From Candidatus Thorarchaeota archaeon (GTDB taxonomy: Archaea; Asgardarchaeota; Thorarchaeia; Thorarchaeales; Thorarchaeaceae): 64,000 nucleotides of DNA. Every line of letters starts with the position of its first letter. Position 1 is the stretch's first letter. Below the pieces are notes generated by a model, which saw only the letters and a program-made list of their open reading frames with translations, did no database searches and was not told the origin of the DNA. This document shows, piece by piece, positions 29,092 to 46,756 of the stretch. A program made the position numbers and the translations under genes. The stretch covers positions 1-64,000 of the forward strand of contig JAGSHN010000031.1 of assembly GCA_029855935.1 (NCBI GenBank), in the 5' to 3' direction.

Positions 29092-29138
29092 AGGGTCCTC
29101 ACCTCAGTAGCTTGCGGAGAATTACATAGCAGGCCGTC

Positions 29139-29150
29139 TATAAAGGTGTT
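29139..29150 (+). repeat. Putative attL core (TATAAAGGTGTT)
   Basis: 11/12 identical to 49736-49747, with AAAGGTGTT exact; lies between the last host gene and the first element promoter. Confidence 0.55.
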
Positions 29151-29196
29151 TGCGGTCGAAATGTATGCCTAATATACCACCACTGAGGGGGGTGAA

Positions 29197-29204
29197 TTTA
29201 TATT
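29197..29204 (+). promoter_or_regulatory. TATA box of the structural operon
   Basis: TTTATATT ~30 bp upstream of a 5' hairpin and ~75 bp upstream of ATG 29275. Confidence 0.6.
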
Positions 29205-29274
29205 CTACTGGATATAGAACTGTATACGTCCCTCCTGCGGGAGGGGCGCAGACTCAGCAACAGGTGAACGAGAT

Positions 29275-30246
29275 ATGGGAAAGAAGAAGAAGGCAACGTT
29301 CTCCGGGAGCGTGGCGCAGGGTGCCGGTCTCGCGGCCGGGGTCTGTGCTGTGCTTCTGATCGTCATGGTGGTCCTGCCAATGGTGGGAATCACGCTAATC
29401 ACGCTCTTCTCGGGCTTCGGGACCACGAACACTCAGTCCACGGGCGAGCCGGTCTTCGTGATGGCGTCCCTCAAGGCTAAGGGCGCCAACACGCCGCTCA
29501 ATGGGACTGTGTATCTCAGTTCTGACCTCCAGACGTGGGAGCCTGTCGACGCGAGCGCAGGCAGTCTCACTAGCAGCAACCAGTACGCGATGGGATCGGT
29601 AATCTATCTGTTCGCACCGATAAGCGGCTACTACACTGCGCTGTTCCAGACGACTGTACCACAGGCTGACACGTCTAAGACCACAGTGTCGCTCGGCATA
29701 TTCGAGCTCATTGCGGTCTCGTCCTCAATGACTGTGACCGCGCAGACGAATGCTGGCTCGAACCTTGGGACGACTGCTTCTGCTTGGTTGAACACCACGT
29801 CGGGTACGACAGAGACAGTGCGGGTGATCATCCAGAACAGTGACACGGACAGCGGCTTCGGCGATGACCGCTGGACCGACCAGACAGTCACAATCGGCAC
29901 ATCCGTCACACTCCCAGGCTACAAGAACTATCCTACTGACGGCTACACCTACGTGGGTCCGTTTGCGGTCGTTCAGGTGAACACGTCCAGTGTGGTCGTC
30001 ACGGGCGCGATGTCCTCAATCCACGTCGGCAGCAACTACTACTATTTTGTCGCGCTGAATGTCGCGACTCTCTGGAACGATGCCGATGTAGCCGGTGATG
30101 GCATCCAGGTCTTCAGTGTGGACCTCACTCCGACGGCCGATGCCCAAGTGACTGTCAGCATCTACGACTATGTACGGGCGGACTTCATCCCGACCGTGAG
30201 CCTTGGCTCTGCGGACGCGTCGACCAGCTTCAAGGTGAACGTGTAG
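29275..30246 (+). CDS. Candidate major structural protein: basic N-terminus, TM anchor, beta-rich ectodomain
   Basis: MGKKKK + hydrophobic helix + Ser/Thr-rich beta sequence; first gene behind its own promoter, flanked by hairpins. Confidence 0.6.
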   Translation: MGKKKKATFSGSVAQGAGLAAGVCAVLLIVMVVLPMVGITLITLFSGFGTTNTQSTGEPVFVMASLKAKGANTPLNGTVYLSSDLQTWEPVDASAGSLTSSNQYAMGSVIYLFAPISGYYTALFQTTVPQADTSKTTVSLGIFELIAVSSSMTVTAQTNAGSNLGTTASAWLNTTSGTTETVRVIIQNSDTDSGFGDDRWTDQTVTIGTSVTLPGYKNYPTDGYTYVGPFAVVQVNTSSVVVTGAMSSIHVGSNYYYFVALNVATLWNDADVAGDGIQVFSVDLTPTADAQVTVSIYDYVRADFIPTVSLGSADASTSFKVNV

Positions 30247-30269
30247 GGGCTCCCTGCGGAGCCTCTACA
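30242..30269 (+). terminator. 12-bp stem hairpin over the stop codon of the first structural gene
   Basis: TGTAGGGGCTCC-CTGC-GGAGCCTCTACA (one G-U pair). Confidence 0.55.
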
Positions 30270-30301
30270 TCTGTTCCCATAGTGGGGGTGATAGAGTGAG
30301 G

Positions 30302-30850
30302 ATGAAGAAGAAGACCCGGAATGCGATTCTCGCGGTGGTGGTCCTACCGGTCGTGATTCTGGCGCTGTTCTACGTCAGCACGGCGATGAACGCAGAGATG
30401 GCGTCGATGCAGCTCCAATATTACAACGATGGACAGCCGGTGTCCACGCCCTTCCAGTTGATCAACGAGGGCGGGCAGGAGATAGACTCCGTCGCCGTGA
30501 CAGTCACGTGGTCTATCTCTGGCGACAACGTGGACTGGACGACCTTGCAGCTCACCGGCGCGGTCATAGTCTACATCTCCGGCGGTGGGGAGCAGGACTC
30601 GCAGCTGACACGTCAGGACTTCACAAGTTCCGATCAGCAGGGGTCGAAGACCCTGACCTTCGCGCTGGAGACACTGTTCGCGCACTACAGCAGCGGCGAC
30701 TACACGCTCCGCTTTCACGGCCTGCTGACGGTGTCGGCGAAGGACCTCGCAGGGAACGACATCAGCGACAGTTGGAACGGCGACAGGACTATCAGCGTCA
30801 GCTGGGACGATGGCTCAGGCTCCCTCACGCTGACAGCAGAGATCTCGTAG
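30302..30850 (+). CDS. N-terminally anchored beta-sandwich structural protein
   Basis: MKKKTRN + TM helix + alternating beta-strand pattern. Confidence 0.65.
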   Translation: MKKKTRNAILAVVVLPVVILALFYVSTAMNAEMASMQLQYYNDGQPVSTPFQLINEGGQEIDSVAVTVTWSISGDNVDWTTLQLTGAVIVYISGGGEQDSQLTRQDFTSSDQQGSKTLTFALETLFAHYSSGDYTLRFHGLLTVSAKDLAGNDISDSWNGDRTISVSWDDGSGSLTLTAEIS

Positions 30851-30861
30851 GAGGGAGCGGA

Positions 30862-31524
30862 GTGCGCAGGCGGGGCTGGCTGGGCGACAGCAGTGCCTTC
30901 AATCTGGAGGTCAGCAACTTCGACCTGCTGCTCACTGTGCTCGCCCTGTTGAGCAGCTTTCTGGTCATCACAAACTTTCAGCAGGATCTTGAGCGGGCAC
31001 TGATTGCCATCGCCTTCAGCGTCTTCTGCATCGCAGGACTGACGCTTGGTCTGGCGAGCTTCGGCGTGCAGCGGGACAAGAATGTGTCCACGGGGGAACT
31101 GCTGGAGAGAGTGAACTGGGGCATTGTGGGGTTCATTGCGATTGCGATGCTTCAGCTGGCGGTGAACAGTCTCGACTTCTTCAGCGCCATCGAGTTCTAT
31201 GACGTCCTATTCCTGTTCATCGCAGCCGTGGCGGAGACATGGCTGTTCCAGTACTTCCTGCTCGTGCTCCTGTACCGGCTCAGCCCGCCCGGTCCAGTAG
31301 GTCTGAGGATGATGATTGTGGCGACACTCGATGCTGCGATATTCGCCAGTTACCATGCCGTCGTCTATGCTGCACGGCCGGACGCAATCTTGGTCGTGTT
31401 CTTAGGCGGCATCGTCCTCGCAATGGTGAACCTCGTCACAAGGAGCGTTCTTCCAGCCATGCTCGCGCACATAATGAACAATGTGCCCATTCTGGCCCTG
31501 CTTCTCGCACTGCTACCGCCGTAG
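30862..31524 (+). CDS. CPBP (CAAX protease II/Abi) family intramembrane metalloprotease
   Basis: Multi-TM; AETWLFQ (degenerate EExxxR), FASYH (FxxxH) and AHIMNN (HxxxN). Confidence 0.78.
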   Translation: MRRRGWLGDSSAFNLEVSNFDLLLTVLALLSSFLVITNFQQDLERALIAIAFSVFCIAGLTLGLASFGVQRDKNVSTGELLERVNWGIVGFIAIAMLQLAVNSLDFFSAIEFYDVLFLFIAAVAETWLFQYFLLVLLYRLSPPGPVGLRMMIVATLDAAIFASYHAVVYAARPDAILVVFLGGIVLAMVNLVTRSVLPAMLAHIMNNVPILALLLALLPP

Positions 31525-31535
31525 GAGGGATTCGA

Positions 31536-32513
31536 ATGAAGAGACAGAGAAGGAGACAACTGGCGCTCGGGGTCCTGCTCCTGACGGCACTCGTGGTGGG
31601 CGTCTATGCGACGACTCGGTTCAGCACCTTCAGCACCAGCGGGTTGCAGGGTGTCAGGGCCACGTGGCAGCGACTGGAGTGGAACGGCGAGTCCTATCCA
31701 TTGTCCGACCCAACGCACGCAGTGATTGACCTCACGGACGAGGGTGTGCCAGCGCCCTTCCTTGCCGACTGGACACGGTACCAGTTGGAGACCGACCAGC
31801 CAAAATACGAGGAGGTGCTTCGCTCCGAGACTGCGTGGTTCAACACGAGTGACGAGGCCCGGTGGCAGGAGGTCCGGCTGGAGCGCTGGACCCTCAGTGT
31901 GGACCTCTACGCTCTCAGCGCTGGAGGCGCATATTCTCCAGCAGGAGTGAAGTTCATTCTCAGGCTGGAGACCAACCCGGACGCGATTTTCGTCGATGCC
32001 AACAGAACGACCTCTTATGTGGTCCACGCCTACGTTCAGGAATATCAGCAGCTGGGGACTCAGACCGAACTCGTCCTCCCCTCACAGGGAGCCTTCACTC
32101 TATACTTTCCTGAGGGCGGAGGCTCGCCGGACATCCCTGAGAACACCTTTGTGGACCCTGATGCCCTCGGCCAGTACGCTGTGGTCGAGATTCAGTTTGA
32201 GACCTCGGACTTTGGGCCGGTCGGATCCCTGTGGTGGTGGACGGATGCCCACGTGCATTATGTCATTGCGCTCGACGTTGTCGTGATAGGGCAGTGGATA
32301 TGGCCACTGGACGAGGCACTGGGTGGCGAGAACAGGGCTGGTGGCGGGACGAAAGTGTCGCCCTGGGACGCCGCAGCACGGGCGCTGGGCGATGCATTCT
32401 CAGCGCTCGGCGACTGGCTGAACCAGTTCTGGTGGGTCATCCCCATCGTGATCATCAGCGTTGCCACCCTTGTGCTTCTTGTCCTGTTGAGAGGAATCGT
32501 GCCGAGGAGGTAA
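31536..32513 (+). CDS. Structural protein anchored at both termini
   Basis: MKRQRRRQ + TM, beta-rich core, Gly linker, amphipathic helix, C-terminal TM FWWVIPIVIISVATLVLLVLL. Confidence 0.7.
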   Translation: MKRQRRRQLALGVLLLTALVVGVYATTRFSTFSTSGLQGVRATWQRLEWNGESYPLSDPTHAVIDLTDEGVPAPFLADWTRYQLETDQPKYEEVLRSETAWFNTSDEARWQEVRLERWTLSVDLYALSAGGAYSPAGVKFILRLETNPDAIFVDANRTTSYVVHAYVQEYQQLGTQTELVLPSQGAFTLYFPEGGGSPDIPENTFVDPDALGQYAVVEIQFETSDFGPVGSLWWWTDAHVHYVIALDVVVIGQWIWPLDEALGGENRAGGGTKVSPWDAAARALGDAFSALGDWLNQFWWVIPIVIISVATLVLLVLLRGIVPRR

Positions 32514-32520
32514 TAGCATC

Positions 32521-32721
32521 GTGGAGTGGGGGCTGGTCTTTATCGTGCTGGCAGCAGCAATAGGAGTGGCAGGCTCGCTACTAGTTGAGGATATGCTGGT
32601 GGCGGTCTATCACCACTGGGTCAAGAAACGCCAGCAGGAGAAGATCCCAGTACGTCGCTGGGTCGTCAGGGACTATGGCGACAGGATGGTCATTCTATGC
32701 AGGGGGTGGAAGAGGGAGTGA
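32521..32721 (+). CDS. Small single-TM protein
   Basis: N-terminal TM and basic tail; GTGA overlap with the next gene. Confidence 0.55.
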   Translation: MEWGLVFIVLAAAIGVAGSLLVEDMLVAVYHHWVKKRQQEKIPVRRWVVRDYGDRMVILCRGWKRE

Positions 32722-35700
32722 GAGGTCGCGCTGTGGTCCTGCTCTTTGTACTGATGATTATGCTACCAGCCCTCGGGCCGATGGTGCCCTCACTGGTTGT
32801 TCCCCCCTCCCACCAGACTACTTCTGGCCCGAGGGCTGACCCCTCACAGAACTTCAGCACGAGCGCGGACGGGGACGTGTCGCCCGACTCCATCACCAGT
32901 TTCAGCGAGACTCTCCCGGATGATGTCATGTTCTATCCCGATAACGAGTCCTATGGGAGCGGGTACGTCGAATCGTTCGCCGACGTCACTGACTGGTACA
33001 CAAATGCTTGGGAGAGCGAAGACTCCTACTCAACGGATGGAGATATTCTGTCGCTGGAGTCGTACGGAAACGCGAACAATGACGTTGACAAACTCTTGAG
33101 CGACTCAATCTCAATCTCAATGTACAACTACTTTGAATTCAGATACCGAATGAATGTGAGTACTGGGGGCGCAGATGGTGTCTGGATTGCCTTCTACGAT
33201 GCGGCAGGCGCCTTGATTCGCTACTGGTCCACGGATTCATTGACGGCCAATAAGTGGGTCACGGTGAAGCGTTGGATACCCACGTTGTCTGCGGGCAGCA
33301 GTTCGTCAACGACCATTGAGAAGGTGGGGCTCTATACGAGAACGGATGTCGGAGAGCACGCGAGGCTTGACGTTGACTACGTGCGTGTTGCCTCTGGTGA
33401 TCAAATGGGCTGGCAATATGACGGTTCTACTCTCTGTGGTGTAGAACCCGCGTCGTTGGCGAACTGGCAATCTACTACTGAGATATTAAGTGGGGACCAG
33501 TTTCGGGTCACAGCGAAGAAGATTGCCGCAGGTAACTCCTATTTCTACGTCAAGTTCTACACAGACACGACAAGCACGATTGCTGAGGTCGATGAGGACT
33601 ACTATCCCTTTTTCAAGATTAGATGGGCTGGCGATAATCTCAATGACACTAGCTGCTGGATGTATCTGTATGTGTACGGACAGGACAAGAACCCCACGTG
33701 GACGGAAATGATGACCGCGGGGCTGGTCCATAGTGTCGACTTCAATGAGACCGTTGTCATGAATGTCGACGCAATCGCAAGCGAGCCCAACTCTCGTGAC
33801 TACATCGCAACAATCTATGTATACCTTGATGATAATCGCATCAATTCAGTCGTACAGATTACTGTAGACTACATGAAGATGTACTCCATTGCGGAGTTCT
33901 CCATCTCGCAGAACTACGTTGAGGTCGATGATATTGCGTATGTACAGAACGGTCTGCTGTACACGGAGCTGGACGGGTATCCTGAATCAATCATATTCAA
34001 CCACGACCCAGCAGTTTCAATATCCCCGACTTATAACGTTGTGAACTTGACGCTTGCCGACTCCGACCCGACGAGCAGTCCCTACGACTACGGGGTAAGG
34101 GTCTATCAGACCACTTCTACGTACTTGACAAAGTACGAGGAAACGAGATTCGATTGGACGAGTTCACTGACAGAGGTGACCGATTTCTTCATAGAGTCCT
34201 ACTATACGAACATCATCAGCGCAATCAAGTTCTGGCAGGACTCCGCTGCGCCGGAGATAATAGCTGTATGGAACACGCCCTCCGAGCCAGACAATGCCAC
34301 AAGTGTTCGGTTCTCCGTGACAGCCTATGATCTGATGGGAGTCTACTCGGTCTCGCTAGTGTCCCTGATGCAGCCGGCCGGATCCTCCATCTCCGCCATA
34401 ACTCTATCGCGCTATGCTCTGGGCGCAGGATCTGAGCTCTGGACCGCGAACGAAACACTGTCGGTGCCGGGCGAGTACGTGTTCGAGGTCCGCGTCTCGG
34501 ACGGAGCGAATGTCGCCTACGAGACACTCTCTCTGGTGGTGGACCAGTACGAACCCGCTACGCTCGTGGTCAGCGACAGCGTCTTCTCGTACAACAACGA
34601 GACCAACGTCCTATCGGGTGATGTGTCCATTCCCTGCTCCTATTCTGTGTACGAGAACGACAGCCTTACGGCGTCCGGATCGCTGTCCGCAGGCTCCTAC
34701 AGCATCGAGTGGCCTCACTCGACCACCCCTGGTAATTACTTCTGGGCTGTCAAGTTTGAAAATGGAGGCCACACGATGTGGAGGAATGGGACGTACCACA
34801 TCGATGGCCAGATTCATGACGGTGATCTGTACTACGCTCTCCTATACTCCTACCCTCTGGAGGTGACCGACATGTCACACTTCTGCGCCAGACCAGAATA
34901 CAGCGGGTACATGTTCTTCCTGCTATGGGGCGACCTCGACAACGTCACCACTTCCATCACAATGGAGCCCTATGTGTACGAAGGAGCCATGACCGGATTC
35001 TACTGCGAGGTCTACGGAGTCTGGTCGCTCCTCATCCCAATTGACGATGCCACGATACATCAGTTTGCGAGTTCTAACGTTGGAAACGTGTTCAGTAATT
35101 TCACTATGAAGTACAACGGTCGAGTCGTGACACCTGCAATAACGACCTTCGGCGGGGGATGGGATCACTACACGTACGAATTTTTCAACACCGGAAGCGG
35201 ACAGACTGGAGTCATCTATCTCAGTGACTACTTTCTTGCACCAAAGACGTTTCAGTACTTTGTCCTCGATAATGGAACCTTCGTGGACTCGAACACTATA
35301 GACTATGACATCGCGGTGTATCATAATTATGAACTATCTCCGTACATAGGTGGCTGGGGGCGCTTCCTGTTCCGCGTTCGCGTCAACAACCAATTTGCGG
35401 GCTGGGGTGTAGGAGTCACTTGGACGGATCAGGACTACAACGACGGACGTCAGTATCTGGAGGTCGACCTCTACGGCCTCAACACCGATTTTCTCGACAC
35501 TACCTGTTCCATCCAACTCGATCTTGTCTGGGGGATAGCATTCCTGGCAAACGAGACCTTCTCCTTCGATGAAGACGGGATAGCGACGGCACTCACCTCT
35601 CTCTACACCCAACCGCTTCTCTACGTTCCCGGAAGGCTCCAGATTGAGAACCGGCTTGCACTTGTGGCGGAGCGGTACGTCACCTTCTCCGGCACGACGA

Positions 35701-36146
35701 ACCTCCCCTGTAATGTCACGGTTACGGAGAACGGCACCGTCGTTGCGACTGCTGAGATCTCGCAGGCGGGAGAGTTCTCCCTGCTGTGGAATAGAAGTGT
35801 CGGGAACGGCGACATCATCGCAACCCTTCACTTCTACACCTCGACCAGTGACGTCTACATCAACGTCACCTATGCCATGCTCCGCGAGATTGAGTACGTG
35901 GACTACGACCAGATCTGGAAGATAGTCCAGAGCGAGGCGGACAGGATAATACGACAGAGTCCAGCGGGAGCCAGCCCAGAGGCTGTGCAGAATATAGTCT
36001 CCAATGCAGTCGTGCCAATCTGGGCATTCATAGTTGTCTTCGGCGTGTTCGGTCTTCTCCTCCTGTGGAGGTTCACGGACTCGATTGCGGAACGGGTCGC
36101 CAAGATGATGAGAAGGAGCGCGGGACTCAGGAGGTCGAGAGGATGA
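32718..36146 (+). CDS. Large spike/adhesin-like glycoprotein
   Basis: Signal-like N-terminus, many N-x-S/T sequons, repeated beta-sandwich modules, C-terminal TM plus basic tail. Confidence 0.75.
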   Translation: MRGRAVVLLFVLMIMLPALGPMVPSLVVPPSHQTTSGPRADPSQNFSTSADGDVSPDSITSFSETLPDDVMFYPDNESYGSGYVESFADVTDWYTNAWESEDSYSTDGDILSLESYGNANNDVDKLLSDSISISMYNYFEFRYRMNVSTGGADGVWIAFYDAAGALIRYWSTDSLTANKWVTVKRWIPTLSAGSSSSTTIEKVGLYTRTDVGEHARLDVDYVRVASGDQMGWQYDGSTLCGVEPASLANWQSTTEILSGDQFRVTAKKIAAGNSYFYVKFYTDTTSTIAEVDEDYYPFFKIRWAGDNLNDTSCWMYLYVYGQDKNPTWTEMMTAGLVHSVDFNETVVMNVDAIASEPNSRDYIATIYVYLDDNRINSVVQITVDYMKMYSIAEFSISQNYVEVDDIAYVQNGLLYTELDGYPESIIFNHDPAVSISPTYNVVNLTLADSDPTSSPYDYGVRVYQTTSTYLTKYEETRFDWTSSLTEVTDFFIESYYTNIISAIKFWQDSAAPEIIAVWNTPSEPDNATSVRFSVTAYDLMGVYSVSLVSLMQPAGSSISAITLSRYALGAGSELWTANETLSVPGEYVFEVRVSDGANVAYETLSLVVDQYEPATLVVSDSVFSYNNETNVLSGDVSIPCSYSVYENDSLTASGSLSAGSYSIEWPHSTTPGNYFWAVKFENGGHTMWRNGTYHIDGQIHDGDLYYALLYSYPLEVTDMSHFCARPEYSGYMFFLLWGDLDNVTTSITMEPYVYEGAMTGFYCEVYGVWSLLIPIDDATIHQFASSNVGNVFSNFTMKYNGRVVTPAITTFGGGWDHYTYEFFNTGSGQTGVIYLSDYFLAPKTFQYFVLDNGTFVDSNTIDYDIAVYHNYELSPYIGGWGRFLFRVRVNNQFAGWGVGVTWTDQDYNDGRQYLEVDLYGLNTDFLDTTCSIQLDLVWGIAFLANETFSFDEDGIATALTSLYTQPLLYVPGRLQIENRLALVAERYVTFSGTTNLPCNVTVTENGTVVATAEISQAGEFSLLWNRSVGNGDIIATLHFYTSTSDVYINVTYAMLREIEYVDYDQIWKIVQSEADRIIRQSPAGASPEAVQNIVSNAVVPIWAFIVVFGVFGLLLLWRFTDSIAERVAKMMRRSAGLRRSRG

Positions 36147-36355
36147 GAGTGAAGGAGACCATAGCGCGAAAGTCAACCTACACGATGATCTTGGCAGTGA
36201 GTTTCTTCATTGCTGTGCTATTGTTCAGCGACTGGTTCGGCGTGACATTCGTGGGCGGGATAGGTGAGCTCTTCCGGCTGTTTCTGCTGTTCCTGCTGCT
36301 CACCAGCCTGTCCAGCGTTCTCACGTGGGCGATGTTCAGGGGGTCGACTGAGTGA
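36143..36355 (+). CDS. Small two-TM protein
   Basis: ATGA overlap; two hydrophobic helices separated by GVTFVGGIGE. Confidence 0.65.
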   Translation: MRVKETIARKSTYTMILAVSFFIAVLLFSDWFGVTFVGGIGELFRLFLLFLLLTSLSSVLTWAMFRGSTE

Positions 36356-36696
36356 TGCTAGTCCTCCTCGTTCTCAGTCCGTTCATTCCGTTGTTCGCCC
36401 TCATGGTACACGAGGGCGCCCACGCATTGATGGCCCGCTGTAGACGGGTCCACTACGTATGGTTCTGGGACGGCAGGCACATAGGTCTGGACCTCGACGA
36501 GCACGCTCCAAGGACAGCGCTGAGGTCAATTGCAGCAGCGGGACCCATTGCCGAGCTAGTGGCGCTACTCTGTTGGCTAGTAGTTCTTGTCGTCCAAGAA
36601 GTGATCATCTGGCCCATGTTCATCCCTCAGATTGCCTATGCCATCTGGTATGGGAACGAAGAGATTAGACGTGTAGAAGCGGAGGTTGAAGAATGA
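36352..36696 (+). CDS. Minimal M50/site-2-protease-like membrane zinc peptidase
   Basis: TM-embedded VHEGAH followed by IAAAGP, typical of M50-like peptidases. Confidence 0.65.
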   Translation: MMLVLLVLSPFIPLFALMVHEGAHALMARCRRVHYVWFWDGRHIGLDLDEHAPRTALRSIAAAGPIAELVALLCWLVVLVVQEVIIWPMFIPQIAYAIWYGNEEIRRVEAEVEE

Positions 36697-36724
36697 ATCA
36701 GGCACTCAAGCTGAACCTGTTCAT
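36688..36724 (+). repeat. 37-bp exact direct repeat, copy 1 (start of paralogous gene)
   Basis: GAAGAATGAATCAGGCACTCAAGCTGAACCTGTTCAT, also at 41577-41613. Confidence 0.9.
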
Positions 36725-37712
36725 AGTGTTCTTGGAGGTCGCGGTGGTGGTCGGACCTCTGCTGCTAATCAGACAAGCGGAGGCGGTCGGTGCTGCGAAC
36801 CCCTTCACGAACACGACGATATTTATCGCAGTTGCTGCCGTCGTGGCCTTCGTGGGCCAGCAGATCGTGAAGTACAGCGTGGAGAGGGAGCTCGGTGCAA
36901 ACCGCGTTCTCGACCTCGTCGTGCGCGGGAAGGGTGCCAGGGCCGAGGAGAAGAACGAGGTAGAGCACAGATACATAGTCTCCGAGACCTACCCTCTGTA
37001 CGACTCATCGCTGGACGACCTGCTGAAAGGCGAGCAGGCGCAGATCTACGCGACCGTGCGCGAGTACTGGGACCGCGTCACCAGTCGTGAGCGTGAGGGA
37101 AACACGCACATCGAGTTGGTGAACACAGATGAGGGCTGGAAGCTCTTCCTCATGCCAGCCCCCTTCGAGGTCACGTTCTCATTCTCGGAGCGCTTCATCG
37201 AGGGTGGCCTCTGGGGCAAGAAGATGCTCGCGAGCTCCGGCTCCGCACTGAGCCTTGGTGAGATGTCGCAGCAGGTGGAGTTCGACACGCGCAAGATAGA
37301 GAACTGTGAGGTGCTCATCATAGTCGATTCCAACTATCTTGCGGCGGCGCTTGAGGCGAGAATCTTACTCGACCCGGATTTGAACATCGACGAGATTGCG
37401 CAGGCCATCCAGCGCCACGTCCAGTTTCAAAATGTGCAGCTCGCTATGGACCTCACGGCGGCAACAGAAGAGAACAAGGTCCTCTGGGAGAAGTATCTGG
37501 CTCAGGATTACGACGTCGACCGACGTGCAGCCAAGAAAGCGAGATTGATGACCGTGAAGTATCTGGAGGGCGAGGAGGATGCGATCCCGAAGGAGTCCCG
37601 CGTCAGCCTGTCGTCACTGAAGTGGTGGCACTGGCTTCTGGTGATCCTGCTCATCGTCGGAGGAGTACTACTATTGCGGATGTTGCTGGTACCAGCGCCT
37701 GCAGGAGGATGA
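36693..37712 (+). CDS. Membrane protein (2 N-terminal TM, cytoplasmic domain, coiled coil, C-terminal TM)
   Basis: Hydrophobicity pattern; paralog of 41582-42181. Confidence 0.75.
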   Translation: MNQALKLNLFIVFLEVAVVVGPLLLIRQAEAVGAANPFTNTTIFIAVAAVVAFVGQQIVKYSVERELGANRVLDLVVRGKGARAEEKNEVEHRYIVSETYPLYDSSLDDLLKGEQAQIYATVREYWDRVTSREREGNTHIELVNTDEGWKLFLMPAPFEVTFSFSERFIEGGLWGKKMLASSGSALSLGEMSQQVEFDTRKIENCEVLIIVDSNYLAAALEARILLDPDLNIDEIAQAIQRHVQFQNVQLAMDLTAATEENKVLWEKYLAQDYDVDRRAAKKARLMTVKYLEGEEDAIPKESRVSLSSLKWWHWLLVILLIVGGVLLLRMLLVPAPAGG

Positions 37713-37715
37713 GAT

Positions 37716-38192
37716 ATGGCATCTAGAATGAGGGAGATCCGCGAGTGGATAGAGTTCGCAGAGGACCGCGCGGCTGCAAAAGAAGAAGCGAAGAAGGCCG
37801 CAAGCGCAGATATAGACCCCAAGAAACATGGCCTGTTCGCGGGGAGCCGGCCGAAGTCAAGGCTGGTCCGTGGTATCAACAGGCTCCGGCTTGTGCAGTC
37901 GTTCTCAGAGATTGGCAAGGACAAGATTGTGGAGGACGAGCAGCTCCTGCCGAGGCTTCTCGCAGAGAATCTCGAGCAGAATCTCGACTACTATGTCCTG
38001 CTACCGCGCCCCGCGCTGGTCGAGGCGCGTGAGCACGGTCAGGAAGTCGTCCCTATCAGTCCTGCGGAGCTCGACGAGGAGACGCGGAGATTGCTGGAGA
38101 TGACCGAGATCCCTGCTCAGGAGCAGGGTAACGAAGAGTCTAAGAGTGAAGATGAGCATGTAGAGGGTGATAGGAACGATGAGAATGAATGA
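37716..38192 (+). CDS. Hypothetical protein with acidic C-terminus
   Basis: In operon; coding-like. Confidence 0.65.
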   Translation: MASRMREIREWIEFAEDRAAAKEEAKKAASADIDPKKHGLFAGSRPKSRLVRGINRLRLVQSFSEIGKDKIVEDEQLLPRLLAENLEQNLDYYVLLPRPALVEAREHGQEVVPISPAELDEETRRLLEMTEIPAQEQGNEESKSEDEHVEGDRNDENE

Positions 38193-38451
38193 AGAGAAGC
38201 TGGGACTGACCGCGAACATCATTCAGGTCTTTGGACTCGGGCTGGCATTGATGGTGGCCTTCCAACTGATGAACATCGTGGACCAAATGCTCTACTGGCT
38301 GTCAGTGACTGCACTCGCGAGTGCCTTTCTCGCTGGCGTCGTCTTATCCAACAGAGAGTCAAAGCTCACTCATGCCCTCTGGCTGATGGCTCTGTCATTC
38401 ACTCTCATTGTCGTTGGCTATGCCATAGTCGTCATTGGGGTGAGAACATGA
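38179..38451 (+). CDS. Small three-TM protein
   Basis: Three hydrophobic segments; ATGA overlap with the next gene. Confidence 0.65.
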   Translation: MRMNEEKLGLTANIIQVFGLGLALMVAFQLMNIVDQMLYWLSVTALASAFLAGVVLSNRESKLTHALWLMALSFTLIVVGYAIVVIGVRT

Positions 38452-38633
38452 AGAGGCAGACTCTGGAGGATATTCAACTTGTGATGTTGGGAGCCGGCGT
38501 GTTTGTTCTCATGTACCTCATTGGGAAAATGGTGGCTAACACGGACATTCTGGCCCCCGGTAACGAGTTCTATCTGATAGCTGTGTTGATAGGTGCTGCA
38601 GCACCATTCTATGTCCTTCTATTCGACAGATGA
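38448..38633 (+). CDS. Small two-TM protein
   Basis: Two hydrophobic helices. Confidence 0.6.
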   Translation: MKRQTLEDIQLVMLGAGVFVLMYLIGKMVANTDILAPGNEFYLIAVLIGAAAPFYVLLFDR

Positions 38634-38646
38634 GGACTGACCATGC

Positions 38647-40365
38647 ATGACCGCGACCACTGCCAGCGAGAGCCACTTCGACATCCCTCCGGGCGGGGAC
38701 AGACCACCGGAGCCAATACGTAGGGACCGCTACGGCAGGTGGCTCGCATACTTTCCCAGCAGAGGCTGGTACCCTGCAGTGCCGGTGCCCACACTCAAAC
38801 GATGGGACAAAACAGAACTGGACTGGCGTCTCGATGCAAGGATCTGGTGGGCGACAGACACCGTCCGCGAGAGCTGGAAGAACCGGGCCGAGGAGGACCC
38901 ACGCCTCTTCCGTGCACTTACGACAGACGGCACACTGACCTTTCTCCGCACTATTCAGCAGCTCGCGTTCCGCTTCGAGGGGCATGAGGGCGGGAATGCA
39001 GTCATTGCCATCAGAGGGCCGCGTCGAAGCGGAAAGTCGTTCCTGGCATTCTCCATTACCGGCCTGTGGACCCGAATGATGCGCTCGCAGGCACATATCA
39101 CGTTCTCCGCAGGTCTGACCAGTACCTTGGCCAAGTCCTCCGATGGCGATATCATCGTGGTAGATGAGAACAGTGCGCTCTCCGGTGGAGAGAGTTCCAC
39201 GTTCTACAAGCAACGTAAGAATCTGATAGACCAGACCGGCGTGAAGAAGATCGCACTGGTGCTCATTGGCCCGGACATCGACTTCAAGGCCTTCGGTCGC
39301 GCCCTCGACCTCGGCATCGAATGGTGGGGTGCCTGGCAGAGCAAGAACGCCACCCGCTTTGTCGTGTTCGACCATGCCGAGCGACCTCTCTATGTCGCAG
39401 GTCTCCAGCGGACGTTCCTGTGGACTCAGGAGCCATTCGCCTCCTATCTTGTCCAGAAGCATGCGATGTTGGATGAACTCATAGAGGCTGGAGGCGTAGA
39501 CACAGCAGCCACAGCCTATGATGAAATGTGGGATGAATACTACTCAGTGCTGATGCAGGAGATACGGGAACGATACCCGCATCACGTCCCATCGGTGCGC
39601 ACTATCCGAAGTATTGCAGTACGAGACCTCAAGCTGAGGTTTCCAACAATCAGCTTTCGTGACGACCTCTGTACGCTAGTTCGCGACGATCTCAAGGCCA
39701 GCATGGAGGTACAGAGTGATAATAATTCATCACTCCCAGTGGTGTCTACGACGACATCAGAGGGGTGGGAGACCTTCCGCGAGGGGATGTACCGACTGGG
39801 GTTCGAGTACGGCGGCGGGAAGAAGCACAGAGAGCGAGATGCGTGGGCGCTCGCCTGGTGGTACGTGCCAGAGACCACGGAGCACTGGACCTACAAGGAA
39901 GTGGCCCGAAAGGTGAACTTTGACGGAAATCCCGACTCGCTCGGCAAGCAGATAAACCGGCTGTTCGGTCGAATCCCCACGAAGGCCGTTGGAGACCTTG
40001 GCGAGATTTGCCTCGCGTCGTGGTTAGATTCTCTCCGCCCGCGCCGCGCACCGAGCACCGGACGTGGCACGCCCGACCTGCTGGTGGACGTGGAGGGTCA
40101 GGAGGTCGCGATCAACGTCAAGACCTCGCTCGAGGACAACTACCGCGAACACATACCCACCACACCAGAGTACCACTGGCGGCCCAACGCCCTGATCGCA
40201 CTGGTCCTGCCCAGACTCCTCGAGATACGACTCTTCCCCATCACACAACCCAAACAGTCCATCAACCGCAACAACGGAGTCCTGACAACGCCGGAGAGGG
40301 TTTCTAACCACGTCAGAGAGATGGTCCTCCGTCAGCAGACAGAGGGCGGAGGCGGCGGCGTCTGA
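38647..40365 (+). CDS. P-loop ATPase fused to HTH and PD-(D/E)xK nuclease-like domain
   Basis: Walker A GPRRSGKS, Walker B IIVVDE, HTH TYKEVARKV...SLGKQINR, and GDLGE...TPDLLV...AINVK. Confidence 0.72.
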   Translation: MTATTASESHFDIPPGGDRPPEPIRRDRYGRWLAYFPSRGWYPAVPVPTLKRWDKTELDWRLDARIWWATDTVRESWKNRAEEDPRLFRALTTDGTLTFLRTIQQLAFRFEGHEGGNAVIAIRGPRRSGKSFLAFSITGLWTRMMRSQAHITFSAGLTSTLAKSSDGDIIVVDENSALSGGESSTFYKQRKNLIDQTGVKKIALVLIGPDIDFKAFGRALDLGIEWWGAWQSKNATRFVVFDHAERPLYVAGLQRTFLWTQEPFASYLVQKHAMLDELIEAGGVDTAATAYDEMWDEYYSVLMQEIRERYPHHVPSVRTIRSIAVRDLKLRFPTISFRDDLCTLVRDDLKASMEVQSDNNSSLPVVSTTTSEGWETFREGMYRLGFEYGGGKKHRERDAWALAWWYVPETTEHWTYKEVARKVNFDGNPDSLGKQINRLFGRIPTKAVGDLGEICLASWLDSLRPRRAPSTGRGTPDLLVDVEGQEVAINVKTSLEDNYREHIPTTPEYHWRPNALIALVLPRLLEIRLFPITQPKQSINRNNGVLTTPERVSNHVREMVLRQQTEGGGGGV

Positions 40366-40380
40366 GTGGGAGAGCGACGT

Positions 40381-40575
40381 TCAGTAGTCCTCGCGAAGGC
40401 ATCTACTAAGTTGTTGGAGAAACTTGACGATCTCCAAACCTTTGGCCATGCTGGTTTTAAAGAAAGTCCCCAAGAGAGGACTGGAGAAAAGGACACGATG
40501 ATTGTGTGTGTCCTCACAGACTATAATCTCGATGCCCTCAACCTCTATAGTTTCTCTCTCTCGAGGTTCTGTCAT
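40381..40575 (-). CDS. Small hypothetical protein
   Basis: ATG 40575 with TTTTTA ~25 bp upstream on the - strand. Confidence 0.45.
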   Translation of the reverse strand: MTEPRERETIEVEGIEIIVCEDTHNHRVLFSSPLLGTFFKTSMAKGLEIVKFLQQLSRCLREDY

Positions 40576-40606
40576 GCATTTACATGTCCTTGCGTTGCGT
40601 AAAAAC

Positions 40607-40638
40607 TTTCGCACTCCACCAGGTACGGAGGTGCGAAA
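40607..40638. other. Inverted repeat/hairpin in the element's intergenic region
   Basis: TTTCGCAC-TCC...GGA-G-GTGCGAAA. Confidence 0.5.
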
Positions 40639-40695
40639 ATCTCTTCGCCTAATAGGGAAAAAGGAGGGGTCCGAGTGGGACTCGGACAGACTACT

Positions 40696-40884
40696 TTAAC
40701 GATTGCTCCCGAACTGCCTGTAATAGTTCCATGTAATCACAGAATTGACAATGACAAAGACTAGAGACCACAGCAACACTTCAAGATAATCCATGTATCC
40801 CAACAAGTACATGATCACGAGAACTGCTGTAACCGCCCCCTGAGGAATCACGAACACGAACGCCGGCATTGGTTGCCTTCTCAA
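40696..40884 (-). CDS. Small two-TM protein co-transcribed with the repressor (candidate superinfection exclusion)
   Basis: Two hydrophobic helices; downstream of the repressor on the - strand. Confidence 0.5.
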   Translation of the reverse strand: MRRQPMPAFVFVIPQGAVTAVLVIMYLLGYMDYLEVLLWSLVFVIVNSVITWNYYRQFGSNR

Positions 40885-40962
40885 CTTCTAATCCCCCGCG
40901 CAGGACTTCTTGACCGTCCACGCGGGAGCCCGTATATCCTATCCATCCTATAAAGTCTCTTC

Positions 40963-41250
40963 CTATGCCTGTTCGAGAATCGCAAGTATCTCCCTGATCT
41001 TCTCCGCTACCCTGCGCCCCTTCTCTGTCAGCCGCAGATAGACCTTCGGTCGAGGCCCCTCCTCTCTCTCCTCGACAATCAGACCGAGCCTTCGAAGATT
41101 CTGTCGGCACCTGCGCAACGCATCTTGACTGACTATTCCTCGAGGATTGAACTGGCCTCGCAGAAGCTCGGTCACGAATCTCTCCTTCTCCTGCAACATG
41201 AGTAGGACCCGCAAGGCTCCCCGTTGCTCAAGCATTTCCAACAAATTCAA
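40963..41250 (-). CDS. Winged-helix (MarR/HxlR-like) transcriptional repressor
   Basis: LRRLGLIVEEREEGPRPKVYLRLTEKGRRVAE; divergent from the early operon. Confidence 0.8.
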   Translation of the reverse strand: MNLLEMLEQRGALRVLLMLQEKERFVTELLRGQFNPRGIVSQDALRRCRQNLRRLGLIVEEREEGPRPKVYLRLTEKGRRVAEKIREILAILEQA

Positions 41251-41293
41251 TGTCTATCGTCATTCAACAACCGACATGATTTAGTTATCCGTT

Positions 41294-41374
41294 TCCTGTC
41301 GTATACCGAATAGCAATATCCTTAATAGGCAGTTGTGGTCATTATAGGATGTCGACATTCGATATGCGACAGGA
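41294..41374. promoter_or_regulatory. Divergent promoter/operator region with 18-bp inverted repeat around a TATA-like box
   Basis: TCCTGTCGTATACCGAAT (41294-41311) vs ATTCGATATGCGACAGGA (41357-41374), 16/18; CTTAATA at 41321; palindrome ATGTCGACAT at 41349. Confidence 0.65.
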
Positions 41375-41381
41375 GGTAGAA

Positions 41382-41585
41382 ATGAAACACAAGCGTTGGT
41401 ACATGACGGAGGCGACGTGGCGGCGCTTCTCGCGTTTTCGCAAGGAGCTGGAGCTGCGTCTAAACAGAGATCTGAGCCAGGACGAGTTCGTGAGAGTCCT
41501 GTGTGATCACAAGGACGTCGTTCTGGACGTGCTACTGAACACCGCCTCGGCGGACTGTGCTTCTCGAGGAGGGACCGAAGAATGA
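41382..41585 (+). CDS. Small ribbon-helix-helix-like regulator (first early gene)
   Basis: GGAGGT RBS; KRWYMTEATWRRFSRFRKEL...SQDEFVRVL pattern. Confidence 0.6.
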   Translation: MKHKRWYMTEATWRRFSRFRKELELRLNRDLSQDEFVRVLCDHKDVVLDVLLNTASADCASRGGTEE

Positions 41586-41613
41586 ATCAGGCACTCAAGC
41601 TGAACCTGTTCAT
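41577..41613 (+). repeat. 37-bp exact direct repeat, copy 2
   Basis: Identical to 36688-36724. Confidence 0.9.
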
Positions 41614-42181
41614 TGTATTTCTGGAGGTGGTAGTGATAGCAGTCCCTGCCACGTTCGCGAAATGGCTTGGACTGCCCACTGTAGATTTCTTCATAGCTGT
41701 TACCGTTGCCTCTCTCTTGGCATCAGTCACCGGGTTATACTTTGTGCATTATACCGTCGAACGTGAACTTGGCAATGCGAGAGTTCTCGATCTCACAGTC
41801 CAGGAAGGTGACATAGAATGGGCACACAGGCTCTACATCTATGAAATCCTCAGCACGGAGAAGGTCAACGACTCCGAGGTTCGTGACTGGTTGCACAGGG
41901 TCTCAGAGGAGTGGCACAGTGTTGTGGTGCTCACTGACGAGGGCTCGAAGCTTCTGCTTACGCGCCGCCCCTTCGAGGAGGAGTTCATCTTCCGCGAGCG
42001 GTTCGTGGAGGCTGGACTCTGGGGCAAGAGAGCCCCAGTAGCGACGGGCTCGGCGGTGGTGCTGGGACGGGATGGTGCAGTAGACGTCCTTTTTGTGACT
42101 GATTCTGCCAGTCAGCGCAGAGACGTTGCTATGAAAATGATGCGCCTCTTAGAAGGTACTTCGGAGGTGGAGGCCCAGTGA
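41582..42181 (+). CDS. Truncated paralog of the 36693-37712 membrane protein
   Basis: Shared MNQALKLNLFIVFLEV, YxVERELGxxRVLDL, TDEGxKL and ERFxExGLWGK; lacks the C-terminal coiled coil and TM. Confidence 0.8.
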   Translation: MNQALKLNLFIVFLEVVVIAVPATFAKWLGLPTVDFFIAVTVASLLASVTGLYFVHYTVERELGNARVLDLTVQEGDIEWAHRLYIYEILSTEKVNDSEVRDWLHRVSEEWHSVVVLTDEGSKLLLTRRPFEEEFIFRERFVEAGLWGKRAPVATGSAVVLGRDGAVDVLFVTDSASQRRDVAMKMMRLLEGTSEVEAQ

Positions 42182-42408
42182 GCAGCGAAGTCCTCTTCGA
42201 GAAAGTCAAGAGAGTCGTGTTCAACGGAGACGGACTGATTGTCGTGTACGTTGGAGACTTCGCGTCTTTTGAGAGATTGCACGAACGGATAATGCACTCC
42301 ACGACAATCTGCGTCAAGACGAACCTGTTCGGCACTACTCAGTACTGGGAGATCCCGACCAGCCGCGTTGTACTATCGCTCGAAACGGAGAAGGAGGGGA
42401 GCGCATGA
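42178..42408 (+). CDS. Small hypothetical protein
   Basis: GTGA and ATGA overlaps with both neighbours. Confidence 0.6.
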   Translation: MSSEVLFEKVKRVVFNGDGLIVVYVGDFASFERLHERIMHSTTICVKTNLFGTTQYWEIPTSRVVLSLETEKEGSA

Positions 42409-42782
42409 GCGGCAAGGCAAAGCAAGACTTCGCAGACGCAAGTCTCCTTGAGCTCTTGAAGTTCCACGAGGAGAACGCTTCAATCTGGAAGACCTTACCG
42501 AGCGACCTCGTTGACGCGTTCTGGGAGCGTTTCAACGAGTTGATGCGCAAGATGGCCGTCGTGATGAAGTGGGACCTCGACGACCTGACGGAGGATCATA
42601 TTGAGCCTCTCAAGGGTGAACTTGCGGCTGTGAAAGACCAGGTGGCGGCGCTCCGGGACAAGGTTGACGAGGCCGCAGCAGAGCTGCGCCAGTTGAGTAA
42701 ACGGTTTGAACGCCTTCTCACCGCACTACAGAATACGGAGGTCTCAATCTCCGTGCGCGATTTCGTGGAGGTGGGCAGATGA
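42405..42782 (+). CDS. Coiled-coil hypothetical protein
   Basis: Heptad pattern LKGELAAVKDQVAALRDKVDEAAAELRQL. Confidence 0.65.
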   Translation: MSGKAKQDFADASLLELLKFHEENASIWKTLPSDLVDAFWERFNELMRKMAVVMKWDLDDLTEDHIEPLKGELAAVKDQVAALRDKVDEAAAELRQLSKRFERLLTALQNTEVSISVRDFVEVGR

Positions 42783-42950
42783 AGACGGTGAAGAATGTGG
42801 AAGGCGTCAGCATTGCGATGGCGCCATGTCCAAACTGCGGTGGCCTTCGACTCCGTTTTGCCATTGAGCAACAAATGCGAGGTATTCTGTGCGAGCTGCG
42901 GATTGCTGTTGCTGGAAGTCTTGGGCGGAGGTGAAGAAACGTGCGAGTGA
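42779..42950 (+). pseudogene. TFIIB-type zinc-ribbon gene split by an apparent 1-nt frameshift
   Basis: CPNCGG in the frame of ATG 42779; EVFCASCGLLL in the +1 frame. Confidence 0.5.
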
Positions 42951-43315
42951 CGTGGAATGGCGATAACACAGTGACGTTTGAAGGCTCTCGTGAGACCTCC
43001 ACGGCCATTGTTGAAGCCCTTGATTTTGCCCGCAGGCTCTTTGCGGGGCTGGACAGGCTGGGTGAGCGGCAGAGGGACGCGGACGAGGCGAGATATGTGC
43101 GTTCAGAGGAATCGGGTGTGTCTCCTTCCTTCACGCTTGATCCCGCCGAGACTCGCCTAGGGAACTGCCCTCTGTGCGGGGGCGTACTGGAGCGGAAGAG
43201 TACGAGCTCAAGGATAGGCCCGCCGGGTATGATTCAGAGCGAGGAGATCCACACGACTGTCTACTGCCCCCATTGCGGCTACGAGCAGGTCTCATTCGAG
43301 GAGGTGCCTCTGTGA
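42941..43315 (+). CDS. Zinc-ribbon protein
   Basis: CPLCG...CPHCG; GGAGGTGA RBS. Confidence 0.65.
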   Translation: MRVTWNGDNTVTFEGSRETSTAIVEALDFARRLFAGLDRLGERQRDADEARYVRSEESGVSPSFTLDPAETRLGNCPLCGGVLERKSTSSRIGPPGMIQSEEIHTTVYCPHCGYEQVSFEEVPL

Positions 43316-44755: not shown

Positions 44756-44756
44756 C

Positions 44757-46577: not shown

Positions 46578-46756
46578 ACGAGAACAGAAAGCGGAGGATC
46601 TGTCCCTATCTAACGCCGAGGCAGCCCTGCCCATCTCCTGGCCTCGTAGACTGTCACATCCACACGGACTGGGGACTGGTGCCCTGCCCGGTGATAATTG
46701 TGAAGCGTTCCTCCAACCCAGAGTTTGTCGAGGGAGGTAGAGAAGAGGAGGAATGA
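46574..46756 (+). CDS. Small Cys/His protein
   Basis: ATGA overlap; CPY..CP..CH..CP. Confidence 0.5.
   Translation: MNENRKRRICPYLTPRQPCPSPGLVDCHIHTDWGLVPCPVIIVKRSSNPEFVEGGREEEE

What the first reader, a model, noticed from the sequence alone, without database searches (positions are those of the whole stretch)
30862..36696. Two unrelated intramembrane metalloproteases inside the structural operon
Seen: a CPBP-type protein (E, FxxxH, HxxxN; first motif degenerate as AETWLFQ) and a 114-aa M50-like protein (TM HEGAH + AAAGP, no obvious NPDG). They are interleaved with proteins that begin with a basic stretch plus a TM helix (MGKKKK, MKKKTR, MKRQRRR). Knowledge: both families cleave substrates in or at membranes. 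Inference: the element encodes its own maturation system that releases or trims membrane-anchored virion proteins, or cleaves the host receptor or S-layer for egress or exclusion. This may be the most distinctive part of the system.
Basis: partly seen in the sequence, partly recalled or inferred. Interest (0 to 1): 0.75.

Follow-up and report, generated by a model that had tools for sequence, protein, structure and literature searches.

The report
Membrane protease pair in Asgard element
A 20.7-kb mobile element in an Asgard archaeon encodes a real, probably active Rce1/CPBP-type membrane protease that all close relatives of the element keep next to the same membrane-anchored partner protein, whereas the second "protease" is an orphan, truncated fragment of a site-2 protease that lacks its third metal-binding residue.

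Summary
Both genes exist at the stated coordinates, but they are not equal. Window 30862-31524 is a true CPBP/Rce1-like protein: Pfam 42.9 bits against a cut-off of 22.4. Its Glu, His, His and Asn active-site residues are invariant in six orthologues of 19-70% identity. CPBPs are glutamic proteases, not metalloproteases.

The gene sits at the same place in all five complete modules of this element family (window, G324, L028, L029, L035) and in one fragment. In every case it lies just upstream of a partner protein with an N-terminal and a C-terminal membrane helix (window 31536-32513). It is most likely a processing enzyme for the element's own membrane proteins, the partner first. This is inferred, not shown.

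Window 36352-36696 is below the Pfam M50 cut-off (14.7 against 27.2 bits). It is nonetheless a real remote relative of the N-terminal core of Asgard CBS-type site-2 proteases: hhalign 95.5%, score 52, against at most 25 for 400 shuffles. It stops before the NxxPxxxxDG motif, has no homologue among 1.8 billion representatives, and is absent from three of the four related modules. It is a lineage-specific accessory and probably not a stand-alone protease.

A CAAX-like protease in an Asgard plasmid is already published (PMC11529989). Notes from this scan describe similar CPBP cassettes in other archaeal elements. Interest is moderate.

The parts
29092..49820 (.). Inserted mobile element of about 20.7 kb. 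It contains the + strand membrane-protein operon 29275-40365, a D5-like primase-helicase at 44757-46577, a C5 methylase at 47990-48649 and a tyrosine integrase at 48811-49734.
   Evidence: Same-genus genomes G312 and G313 have the flanks, including the host gene 28312-29091, only about 0.1 kb apart from the right flank. A 9-bp repeat AAAGGTGTT lies at both junctions and is not significant.
29275..30246 (+). 323-aa protein with a basic N-terminus and a TM anchor (MGKKKK...)
   Evidence: ORF. No family found. Positional counterparts with the same topology occur in G324, L028 and L029.
30296..30850 (+). 184-aa protein with an N-terminal signal or anchor
   Evidence: Weak homologue at L028:4269-4904.
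30862..31524 (+). CPBP/Rce1-like glutamic intramembrane protease, 220 aa, 7 predicted helices. Catalytic residues E125, H165, H203, N207.
   Evidence: Pfam 42.9 bits, above the 22.4 cut-off. Residues invariant in alignment A4. AF2 model has pLDDT 61, and 72-87 over residues 120-210. Best structural rows are SpdC 6u0o Z 8.7, Rce1 4cad Z 6.8 and APH-1 Z 6.7.
31536..32513 (+). 325-aa partner protein with an N-terminal TM, an ectodomain, a juxtamembrane LGxxxxDxFxxLG-like stretch, a C-terminal TM and a basic tail
   Evidence: The GGAGG site for this gene overlaps the CPBP stop codon. Homologues follow the CPBP in L001, L028 and L035, and positional and topological counterparts follow it in L029 and G324.
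32521..32721 (+). 66-aa single-TM protein
   Evidence: No family.
32697..36146 (+). 1149-aa spike-like surface protein with a signal peptide and a C-terminal TM
   Evidence: 29% identical to the G324 protein. Relatives in 42 metagenome loci.
36143..36355 (+). 70-aa two-TM protein. Its ATG overlaps the spike stop codon (ATGA).
   Evidence: Sequence. Positional counterparts in G324, L028 and L029.
36352..36696 (+). 114-aa truncated M50/site-2-protease-like protein: an HEGAH helix, a beta-hairpin, an AAAGP helix and a third helix. It has no NxxPxxxxDG motif.
36693..37712 (+). 339-aa membrane protein (two N-terminal TMs, one C-terminal TM). Start overlaps the previous stop (ATGA). A paralogue lies at 41582-42181.
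   Evidence: Homologue at G324 L023:16595-17437.
38647..40365 (+). 572-aa P-loop ATPase, the last gene of the operon. It serves as the marker of the element family.
   Evidence: Homologues in G324 (30% identity), L035 and L028. No Pfam, PHROG or INPHARED match.

Best explanation
The operon is the membrane (envelope or transfer) module of a roughly 20.7-kb integrated element of a Thorarchaeota-type Asgard archaeon. Its CPBP gene encodes a catalytically competent glutamic intramembrane endopeptidase. This enzyme is made together with the module's membrane-anchored proteins and most likely cuts one or more of them inside or at the edge of the membrane. The prime candidate substrate is the partner protein with two membrane helices whose ribosome-binding site overlaps the CPBP stop codon. 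The 114-aa gene is a diverged, truncated copy of the N-terminal core of a cellular site-2 protease. It keeps the HExxH helix, the hairpin and the GP helix, but lacks the Asp-bearing helix, so alone it probably cannot form the M50 zinc site. It is a lineage-specific accessory, either a pseudo-protease or modulator or a partial site that needs something else. It is not part of the conserved machinery. Shown: family membership, residue conservation, synteny, insertion boundaries and the truncation. Inferred: activity, substrate and role.
For: The top structural rows are all CPBP-fold proteins. A CPBP lies at the same position in all five complete modules and in fragment L001, scoring Pfam 23.1-62.1 bits. 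E125, F129, F161, H165, H203 and N207 are invariant at 19-26% overall identity. The partner gene follows the CPBP in all six loci. It is homologous in four and matches by position and topology in the other two. The SD site overlaps the stop codon. Loci that share only the spike family have neither the CPBP nor the partner. The CPBP is embedded in the long co-directional operon, not in the regulatory region around 40.7-41.6 kb. P0002: hhalign 95.5% against shuffles. Weak tblastn hits fall on the first ~95 residues of ~380-aa Asgard M50-CBS proteins. Language-model neighbours are small viral proteins and M50, M50B and DUF3267 clusters. There is no homologue elsewhere. The motif with the third ligand is missing.
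Against: No cleavage has been observed and no conserved cleavage motif was found. The partner proteins of L029 and G324 are counterparts only by position and topology. In L001 a 72-aa gene lies between the CPBP and the partner. In the window and L001 the second Glu and the Arg of EExxxR are replaced, and L035 has lost the Arg. Some CPBP-fold proteins work without catalysis, for example SpdC, which is the best structural row. The CPBP model is of low confidence (pLDDT 61). For P0002, glutamates in helix 3 and in the tail could in principle replace the missing Asp. The single-sequence model (pLDDT 68.5) cannot decide this.
Confidence: 0.45

Rival explanations
1. The CPBP is an immunity or exclusion factor of the Abi type. 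It protects the carrier cell against re-entry of the same element, or against a toxic or fusogenic element protein, as CPBP/Abi proteins protect bacteriocin producers.
For: The only published Asgard mobile-element CPBP was annotated as 'CAAX-like protease self-immunity' in a 20.8-kb Atabeyarchaeia plasmid with a primase-helicase, a tyrosine integrase and seven TM proteins (PMC11529989). That gene set and size resemble this element. The catalytic motifs are also needed for Abi immunity (general knowledge of the family).
Against: The gene sits inside the long membrane-protein operon and is coupled to it, not placed with the regulatory or lysogeny genes. No bacteriocin-like small peptide gene lies nearby. 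It co-varies with the partner gene, not with the spike, which would be the entry protein.
Confidence: 0.25
2. The CPBP acts as a non-catalytic membrane scaffold or chaperone. It holds the TM helix of its partner, as SpdC holds SagB, or as CflP acts in streptococci.
For: SpdC (6u0o) is the best structural row, Z 8.7. The partner is a protein with terminal TM helices encoded directly downstream. The EExxxR motif is degenerate in the window lineage.
Against: The Glu, His, His and Asn residues are invariant across six very divergent orthologues. This is hard to explain without catalysis.
Confidence: 0.1
3. One reading: two active intramembrane proteases (CPBP plus M50) jointly mature the anchored proteins or cut host surface proteins.
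For: Both genes lie in one operon. Three related loci carry some small HExxH membrane protein next to the spike gene: the window, G324 and L056.
Against: The M50-like protein lacks the third ligand and the helix that carries it. It is an orphan. It is absent from L028, L029 and L035. The three small HExxH proteins cannot be aligned with each other and sit at different positions. Neighbouring genes do not supply the missing M50 part.
Confidence: 0.08
4. The 114-aa ORF is a decaying remnant of a captured site-2 protease gene and has no function.
For: It is truncated, is an orphan, and is not conserved in relatives.
Against: The frame is open. Start and stop overlap the neighbouring genes (GTGA and ATGA junctions). 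HExxH, the PRT stretch and GP are still intact at about 26% identity to cellular relatives. This suggests selection.
Confidence: 0.12

Closest known systems
CPBP / Rce1-like glutamic intramembrane proteases (Pfam PF02517; MmRce1, PDB 4CAD)
   Same: Above the Pfam cut-off. Catalytic Glu, His, His and Asn in the three motifs. Multi-helix membrane protein. Rce1, SpdC and APH-1 are the best structural rows.
   Different: Only 220 aa. The second Glu and the Arg of EExxxR are replaced. There is no CAAX-type substrate. It is encoded on a mobile element. No sequence-level match to any solved structure.
CPBP proteases encoded next to their own target: myxosortase MrtX with MYXO-CTERM, MrtJ with JDVT-CTERM, MrtS with Synerg-CTERM (PMC11980579; 10.1101/2023.06.07.544157)
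   Same: A CPBP gene lies directly beside a membrane-anchored surface protein with a C-terminal TM helix and a basic tail. Weak NCBIfam hits to the Mrt models.
   Different: Scores are far below the model cut-offs (19-21 bits against 75-130). No invariant Cys precedes the C-terminal helix. The system is archaeal and on a mobile element.
'CAAX-like protease self-immunity' gene of the 20.8-kb Atabeyarchaeia plasmid (Valentin-Alvarado et al. 2024, PMC11529989)
   Same: An Asgard mobile element of the same size, with a primase-helicase, a tyrosine integrase, many TM proteins and one CPBP. A ParB-type HTH protein occurs in relative L028.
   Different: The authors read it as immunity within a plasmid secretion or conjugation system. 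Synteny here points to the partner protein.
M50 site-2 proteases (PF02163; MjS2P) and small HExxH membrane proteins of M50B and DUF3267 (PF13398, PF11667)
   Same: HExxH in a TM helix, a hairpin and a GP helix, aligned over 84 columns with the Asgard CBS-type S2P core. The size is like that of DUF3267-type mini proteins.
   Different: Below every Pfam cut-off. No NxxPxxxxDG/LDG ligand helix. No PDZ or CBS domain. 114 aa.
Morphogenetic module of Pleolipoviridae (membrane protein, spike, small TM proteins, NTPase)
   Same: The gene order is of the same kind: anchored proteins, a large spike with a C-terminal TM, small TM proteins and a terminal ATPase.
   Different: No sequence match of the ATPase or the CPBP to INPHARED or PHROGs. 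To my knowledge pleolipoviruses are not known to carry a CPBP.

Membership tests
CPBP / Rce1-like (PF02517) | Pfam model above its gathering score | tested here: met
   42.9 bits against 22.4. Orthologues score 23.1-62.1 bits.
CPBP / Rce1-like (PF02517) | Motif 1 EExxxR with the catalytic first Glu | tested here: met
   E125 is invariant in six orthologues. The second Glu is Thr and the Arg is Gln in the window.
CPBP / Rce1-like (PF02517) | Motif 2 FxxxH and motif 3 HxxxN/D | tested here: met
   F161, H165, H203 and N207 are invariant.
CPBP / Rce1-like (PF02517) | Rce1-type helical membrane fold | tested here: inconclusive
   Model pLDDT 61. Foldseek E about 2 for 4cad. VIA rows: SpdC Z 8.7, Rce1 Z 6.8, APH-1 Z 6.7. 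These Z values are in the range that helical bundles reach by chance.
CPBP / Rce1-like (PF02517) | Endoproteolytic activity | not testable with these tools
   Needs a biochemical assay.
Peptidase M50 / site-2 protease (PF02163) | Pfam model above its gathering score | tested here: not met
   14.7 bits, E 0.019, against 27.2. Not found by the whole-genome family search at E 0.1.
Peptidase M50 / site-2 protease (PF02163) | HExxH inside a TM helix and homology of the N-terminal core | tested here: met
   HEGAH. hhalign 95.5%, score 51.9, 84 columns, against at most 24.8 in 400 shuffles.
Peptidase M50 / site-2 protease (PF02163) | Third zinc ligand: Asp of the NxxPxxxxDG (LDG) helix | tested here: not met
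   The alignment ends at template column 98 and the ligand is at column 121. The remaining 16 residues carry no such motif. Neighbouring genes do not supply it.
Myxosortase-type CPBP sorting systems (NCBIfam Mrt_core, MrtS, MrtJ) | Model cut-off reached | tested here: not met
   19.1-21.2 bits against cut-offs of 75-130.
Myxosortase-type CPBP sorting systems (NCBIfam Mrt_core, MrtS, MrtJ) | Targets with a tripartite C-terminal signal holding an invariant Cys | tested here: not met
   The partner family has a juxtamembrane stretch, a TM helix and a basic tail, but no invariant Cys. The definition is from PMC11980579.
Abi-type bacteriocin self-immunity | Adjacent bacteriocin or small secreted peptide gene | tested here: not met
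   The neighbours are 184- to 325-aa anchored proteins. No peptide family hit.
Pleolipovirus morphogenetic module | Sequence relation of the ATPase or membrane proteins to VP8, VP3 or VP4 | tested here: inconclusive
   No PHROG hit and no tblastn hit in 50,697 phage and archaeal-virus records. Remote structural similarity was not tested.

The most novel reading that the evidence does not exclude
The CPBP is the dedicated maturation protease of a new family of enveloped or vesicle-forming Asgard elements. It clips its coupled partner glycoprotein to prime it, which would be an intramembrane analogue of the priming of viral fusion proteins. The truncated site-2 protease is a virus-made pseudo-enzyme that blocks or diverts the host's own regulated intramembrane proteolysis.
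Probability: 0.12. Interest if true: 0.8.

Novelty: new variant of a known kind. Interest (0 to 1): 0.45.

Why it matters
Little is known about how Asgard archaeal mobile elements build their membrane-associated particles or transfer machinery. An element family that always carries an apparently active intramembrane protease coupled to one partner protein offers a concrete enzyme-substrate pair that can be tested in a heterologous host. If the partner is cleaved, it would be, as far as I know, the first intramembrane maturation protease assigned to an archaeal mobile element. It would also add a Cys-independent target class to the CPBP proteases that are encoded next to their own target. The truncated site-2 protease is a smaller curiosity: a possible pseudo-protease captured from the cell.

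Tried and rejected
1. Split M50. I tested whether the upstream 70-aa gene or the N-terminus of the downstream 339-aa gene supplies the missing Asp helix. The lead was an NLFIVFLE stretch that recalls NLxPxFPxD. hhalign scores were 11.6 and 12.0, which is noise, and concatenation did not extend the alignment. No frameshift joins the frames, because stops lie directly upstream.

2. Complex prediction of P0002 with residues 1-75 of the 339-aa protein gave 'no answer', score 0.00. This is not evidence either way.

3. The AF2 model of P0002 alone was too poor to use: pLDDT 68.5, pTM 0.33. Its Atlas fold search returned only unrelated helical proteins with TM below 0.45.

4. Many operon proteins end in GG, RRG or EE. 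I considered a C-terminal signal. These endings are the GGAGG ribosome-binding sites of the next genes read as codons.

5. The ARAGORN tRNA-Ser at 49586-49673 as an att site. It lies inside the integrase ORF. No repeat of it occurs at the left end, and the empty sites in relatives hold no tRNA.

6. Searches that found nothing:
- PHROGs
- tblastn against phage and archaeal-virus records
- IMG/VR scans with the ATPase and with the spike
- PDB sequence searches
- the scan's own notes, searched by sequence

7. The three small HExxH proteins (window, G324, L056) do not form one family. BLASTP and hhalign find only the HExGHxLA helix in common.

Full report
**What is there**

The + strand from 29275 to 40365 is one tight operon. 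Junctions either overlap (ATGA or GTGA) or leave gaps of 10-50 nt, and GGAGG sites lie inside the preceding genes. It encodes, in order:
- a 323-aa and a 184-aa protein, each with a basic N-terminus and a TM helix;
- a 220-aa polytopic protein (30862-31524);
- a 325-aa protein with an N-terminal and a C-terminal TM helix (31536-32513);
- a 66-aa TM protein;
- a 1149-aa spike-like protein;
- a 70-aa two-TM protein;
- the 114-aa protein (36352-36696);
- a 339-aa membrane protein;
- a 158-aa acidic protein;
- two small TM proteins;
- a 572-aa P-loop ATPase.

**The element**

Same-genus genomes G312 and G313 carry the left flank, including the host gene 28312-29091. The right flank (from about 49820) lies about 0.1 kb beyond that gene. 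So about 29.1-49.8 kb is a 20.7-kb insertion. Besides the operon it holds a wHTH gene, a D5-like primase-helicase, DUF488, a C5 methylase and a tyrosine integrase. The same-genus genomes lack the CPBP and the ATPase. The ARAGORN tRNA-Ser lies inside the integrase ORF and gives no att repeat. Earlier scan notes place the genome in Thorarchaeota-type Asgard archaea.

**The CPBP**

- Pfam PF02517 scores 42.9 bits against a cut-off of 22.4.
- NCBIfam gives only sub-threshold hits to CPBP models, among them the myxosortase-type MrtS and MrtJ.
- The protein collection holds one close homologue, 70% identical, on a 1.9-kb scaffold.
- Searching with the ATPase found a related element in a different genus of the same family (G324, JAJRZD010000017.1; ATPase 30% identity). 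Its gene order is the same and it has a canonical CPBP with EEVFFR, FAVMH and HIILN.
- A metagenome scan with the spike alignment gave 42 loci. Three of them (L028, L029, L035) share the whole module. Each has a CPBP at the same position, at Pfam 60.9, 62.1 and 23.1 bits.
- In the six-sequence alignment (19-70% identity) only L116, E125, F129, F161, H165, H203 and N207 are invariant. E125, H165, H203 and N207 correspond to the Rce1 catalytic residues.
It has lost the second Glu and the Arg.
- An AF2 model from this shallow alignment is weak overall (pLDDT 61) but reaches 72-87 over the catalytic half.
- Foldseek is not significant. The three best VIA rows are all CPBP-fold proteins: SpdC Z 8.7, MmRce1 Z 6.8, APH-1 Z 6.7.
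- By established knowledge of MmRce1, this family is glutamic, not metal-dependent. 'Metalloprotease' is therefore the wrong word.

**The partner**

- In the window the GGAGG site of gene 31536 overlaps the CPBP stop codon.
- A profile of the 325-aa protein finds homologues directly after the CPBP in L001, L028 and L035.
- L029 and G324 have a protein, or a split pair, of the same topology at that place.
- A CPBP profile finds no other CPBP among the 1108 ORFs of all loci.
- Most spike-family loci belong to a different module type: a ~235-aa protein, a ~185-aa protein, a ~79-aa protein and a spike with three C-terminal TM helices. These have neither CPBP, partner nor ATPase.
- The CPBP therefore travels with the partner and the ATPase module, not with the spike.
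- The partner family shares a loosely conserved juxtamembrane stretch, a TM helix and a basic tail, but no invariant Cys. It is therefore not a myxosortase-type signal as defined in PMC11980579.

**The M50-like protein**

- Pfam PF02163 gives 14.7 bits, E 0.019, below the cut-off of 27.2.
- The word-indexed search and an exhaustive phmmer search of 1.8 billion representatives find only the protein itself.
- A six-frame search of 400 Asgard genomes gives weak hits (E 3e-4 to 1e-2). All fall on the first ~95 residues of ~380-aa proteins, and these are typical M50-CBS site-2 proteases with HELAH, GP and NLIPAFPMDGG.
- Against an alignment of six of these cores, hhalign gives 95.5%, E 1.3e-8, score 51.9 over 84 columns.
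- 200 global shuffles reach at most 19.8, 200 local shuffles at most 24.8, and the reversed sequence reaches 14.5. The homology is real.
- The alignment stops at template column 98. The Asp ligand is at column 121, and the last 16 residues of the protein are a charged tail that carries the next gene's ribosome-binding site.
- Language-model neighbours are ~110-120-aa viral hypothetical proteins and clusters partly annotated M50, M50B or DUF3267.
- The host has three full M50 genes and four other CPBP genes.

**Co-occurrence of the second protease**

Among all ORFs of the related loci, only two other small proteins have HExxH in a hydrophobic helix:
- a 131-aa protein in G324, directly upstream of the spike (Pfam M50 16.4 bits, E 0.006);
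- a 144-aa protein in L056, also directly upstream of a spike.

They cannot be aligned with each other or with the window protein beyond the HExGHxLA helix. Against the S2P core they score within the noise range. L028, L029 and L035 have none. Small HExxH membrane proteins thus recur sporadically near the spike gene, but they are not a conserved part of the module.

**Interpretation**

The CPBP is a conserved component of this element family with an intact catalytic set. It is expressed from within the membrane-protein operon and coupled to one partner. The most economical reading is that it processes element-encoded membrane proteins, the partner first (confidence about 0.45).

An Abi-like immunity role remains a serious rival. 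That is how a CAAX-like protease in a similar 20.8-kb Atabeyarchaeia plasmid was annotated (PMC11529989). A non-catalytic SpdC-like scaffold is less likely, given the invariant residues.

The 114-aa protein is best described as a truncated site-2 protease core. By the rules of the M50 family it should not bind zinc in the usual way, and its role is open.

**Prior art and the scan's own notes**

The published Asgard plasmid case means that a CPBP on an Asgard mobile element is not new in itself. Notes of this scan (unchecked AI notes) describe CPBP genes among anchored surface proteins in integrated elements of Thermoplasmata, nanoarchaea and other archaea. One of them lies always directly in front of the same anchored protein. 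The adjacency I measured here agrees with that pattern, but it is not independent proof of function.

**Verdict**

This is a new variant of a known kind: a CPBP paired with its own target, here on an Asgard mobile element, plus a truncated S2P. Interest 0.45.

Noticed in passing
window 29092-49820: Comparison with same-genus genomes defines a 20.7-kb insertion between the host gene 28312-29091 and the gene starting near 49743. A 9-bp repeat AAAGGTGTT lies at 29142 and 49739, but it could be chance (about 0.3 expected).
   Followed up: partly
window 49586-49673: The only tRNA call in the window (tRNA-Ser, GCT) lies inside the integrase ORF. It has no repeat at the other end of the element, and the empty sites of relatives hold no tRNA. 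It is probably a false call.
   Followed up: partly
G000:C28:228472-228705 (L022): A fragment 50% identical to the first 78 residues of the element's ATPase, interrupted by two stop codons. It looks like a decayed copy of a related element elsewhere in the same genome.
   Followed up: no
L049 (Ga0299912_10000952): The ORFs at 2-3494 recur at 16630-20149, a spacing of 16,655 bp. The contig is probably a concatemer of a circular ~16.7-kb element of the CPBP-less 'group B' type that shares the spike family.
   Followed up: no
42 metagenome loci, L028-L069: The N-terminal part of the spike (FSETLPDD and GWxxDGST motifs) is shared by at least two quite different gene modules in sediment and wetland metagenomes. 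None is in IMG/VR. This suggests that a surface-protein domain is exchanged between element families.
   Followed up: partly
window 36688-36746 and 41577-41635: The start of the 339-aa membrane gene, including its ribosome-binding site, is repeated at 88% identity over 59 nt at the start of a shorter paralogue (41582-42181) in the regulatory half of the element.
   Followed up: no
window 44016-44492: A DUF488 protein (active N3a subclade, 69.9 bits) is encoded just upstream of the D5-like primase-helicase inside the element.
   Followed up: no
L028:14485-16578: The related element L028 encodes a 697-aa protein with a ParB-type HTH. This fits the ParB-like NTPase lineage described for Asgard plasmids in PMC11529989.
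   Followed up: no
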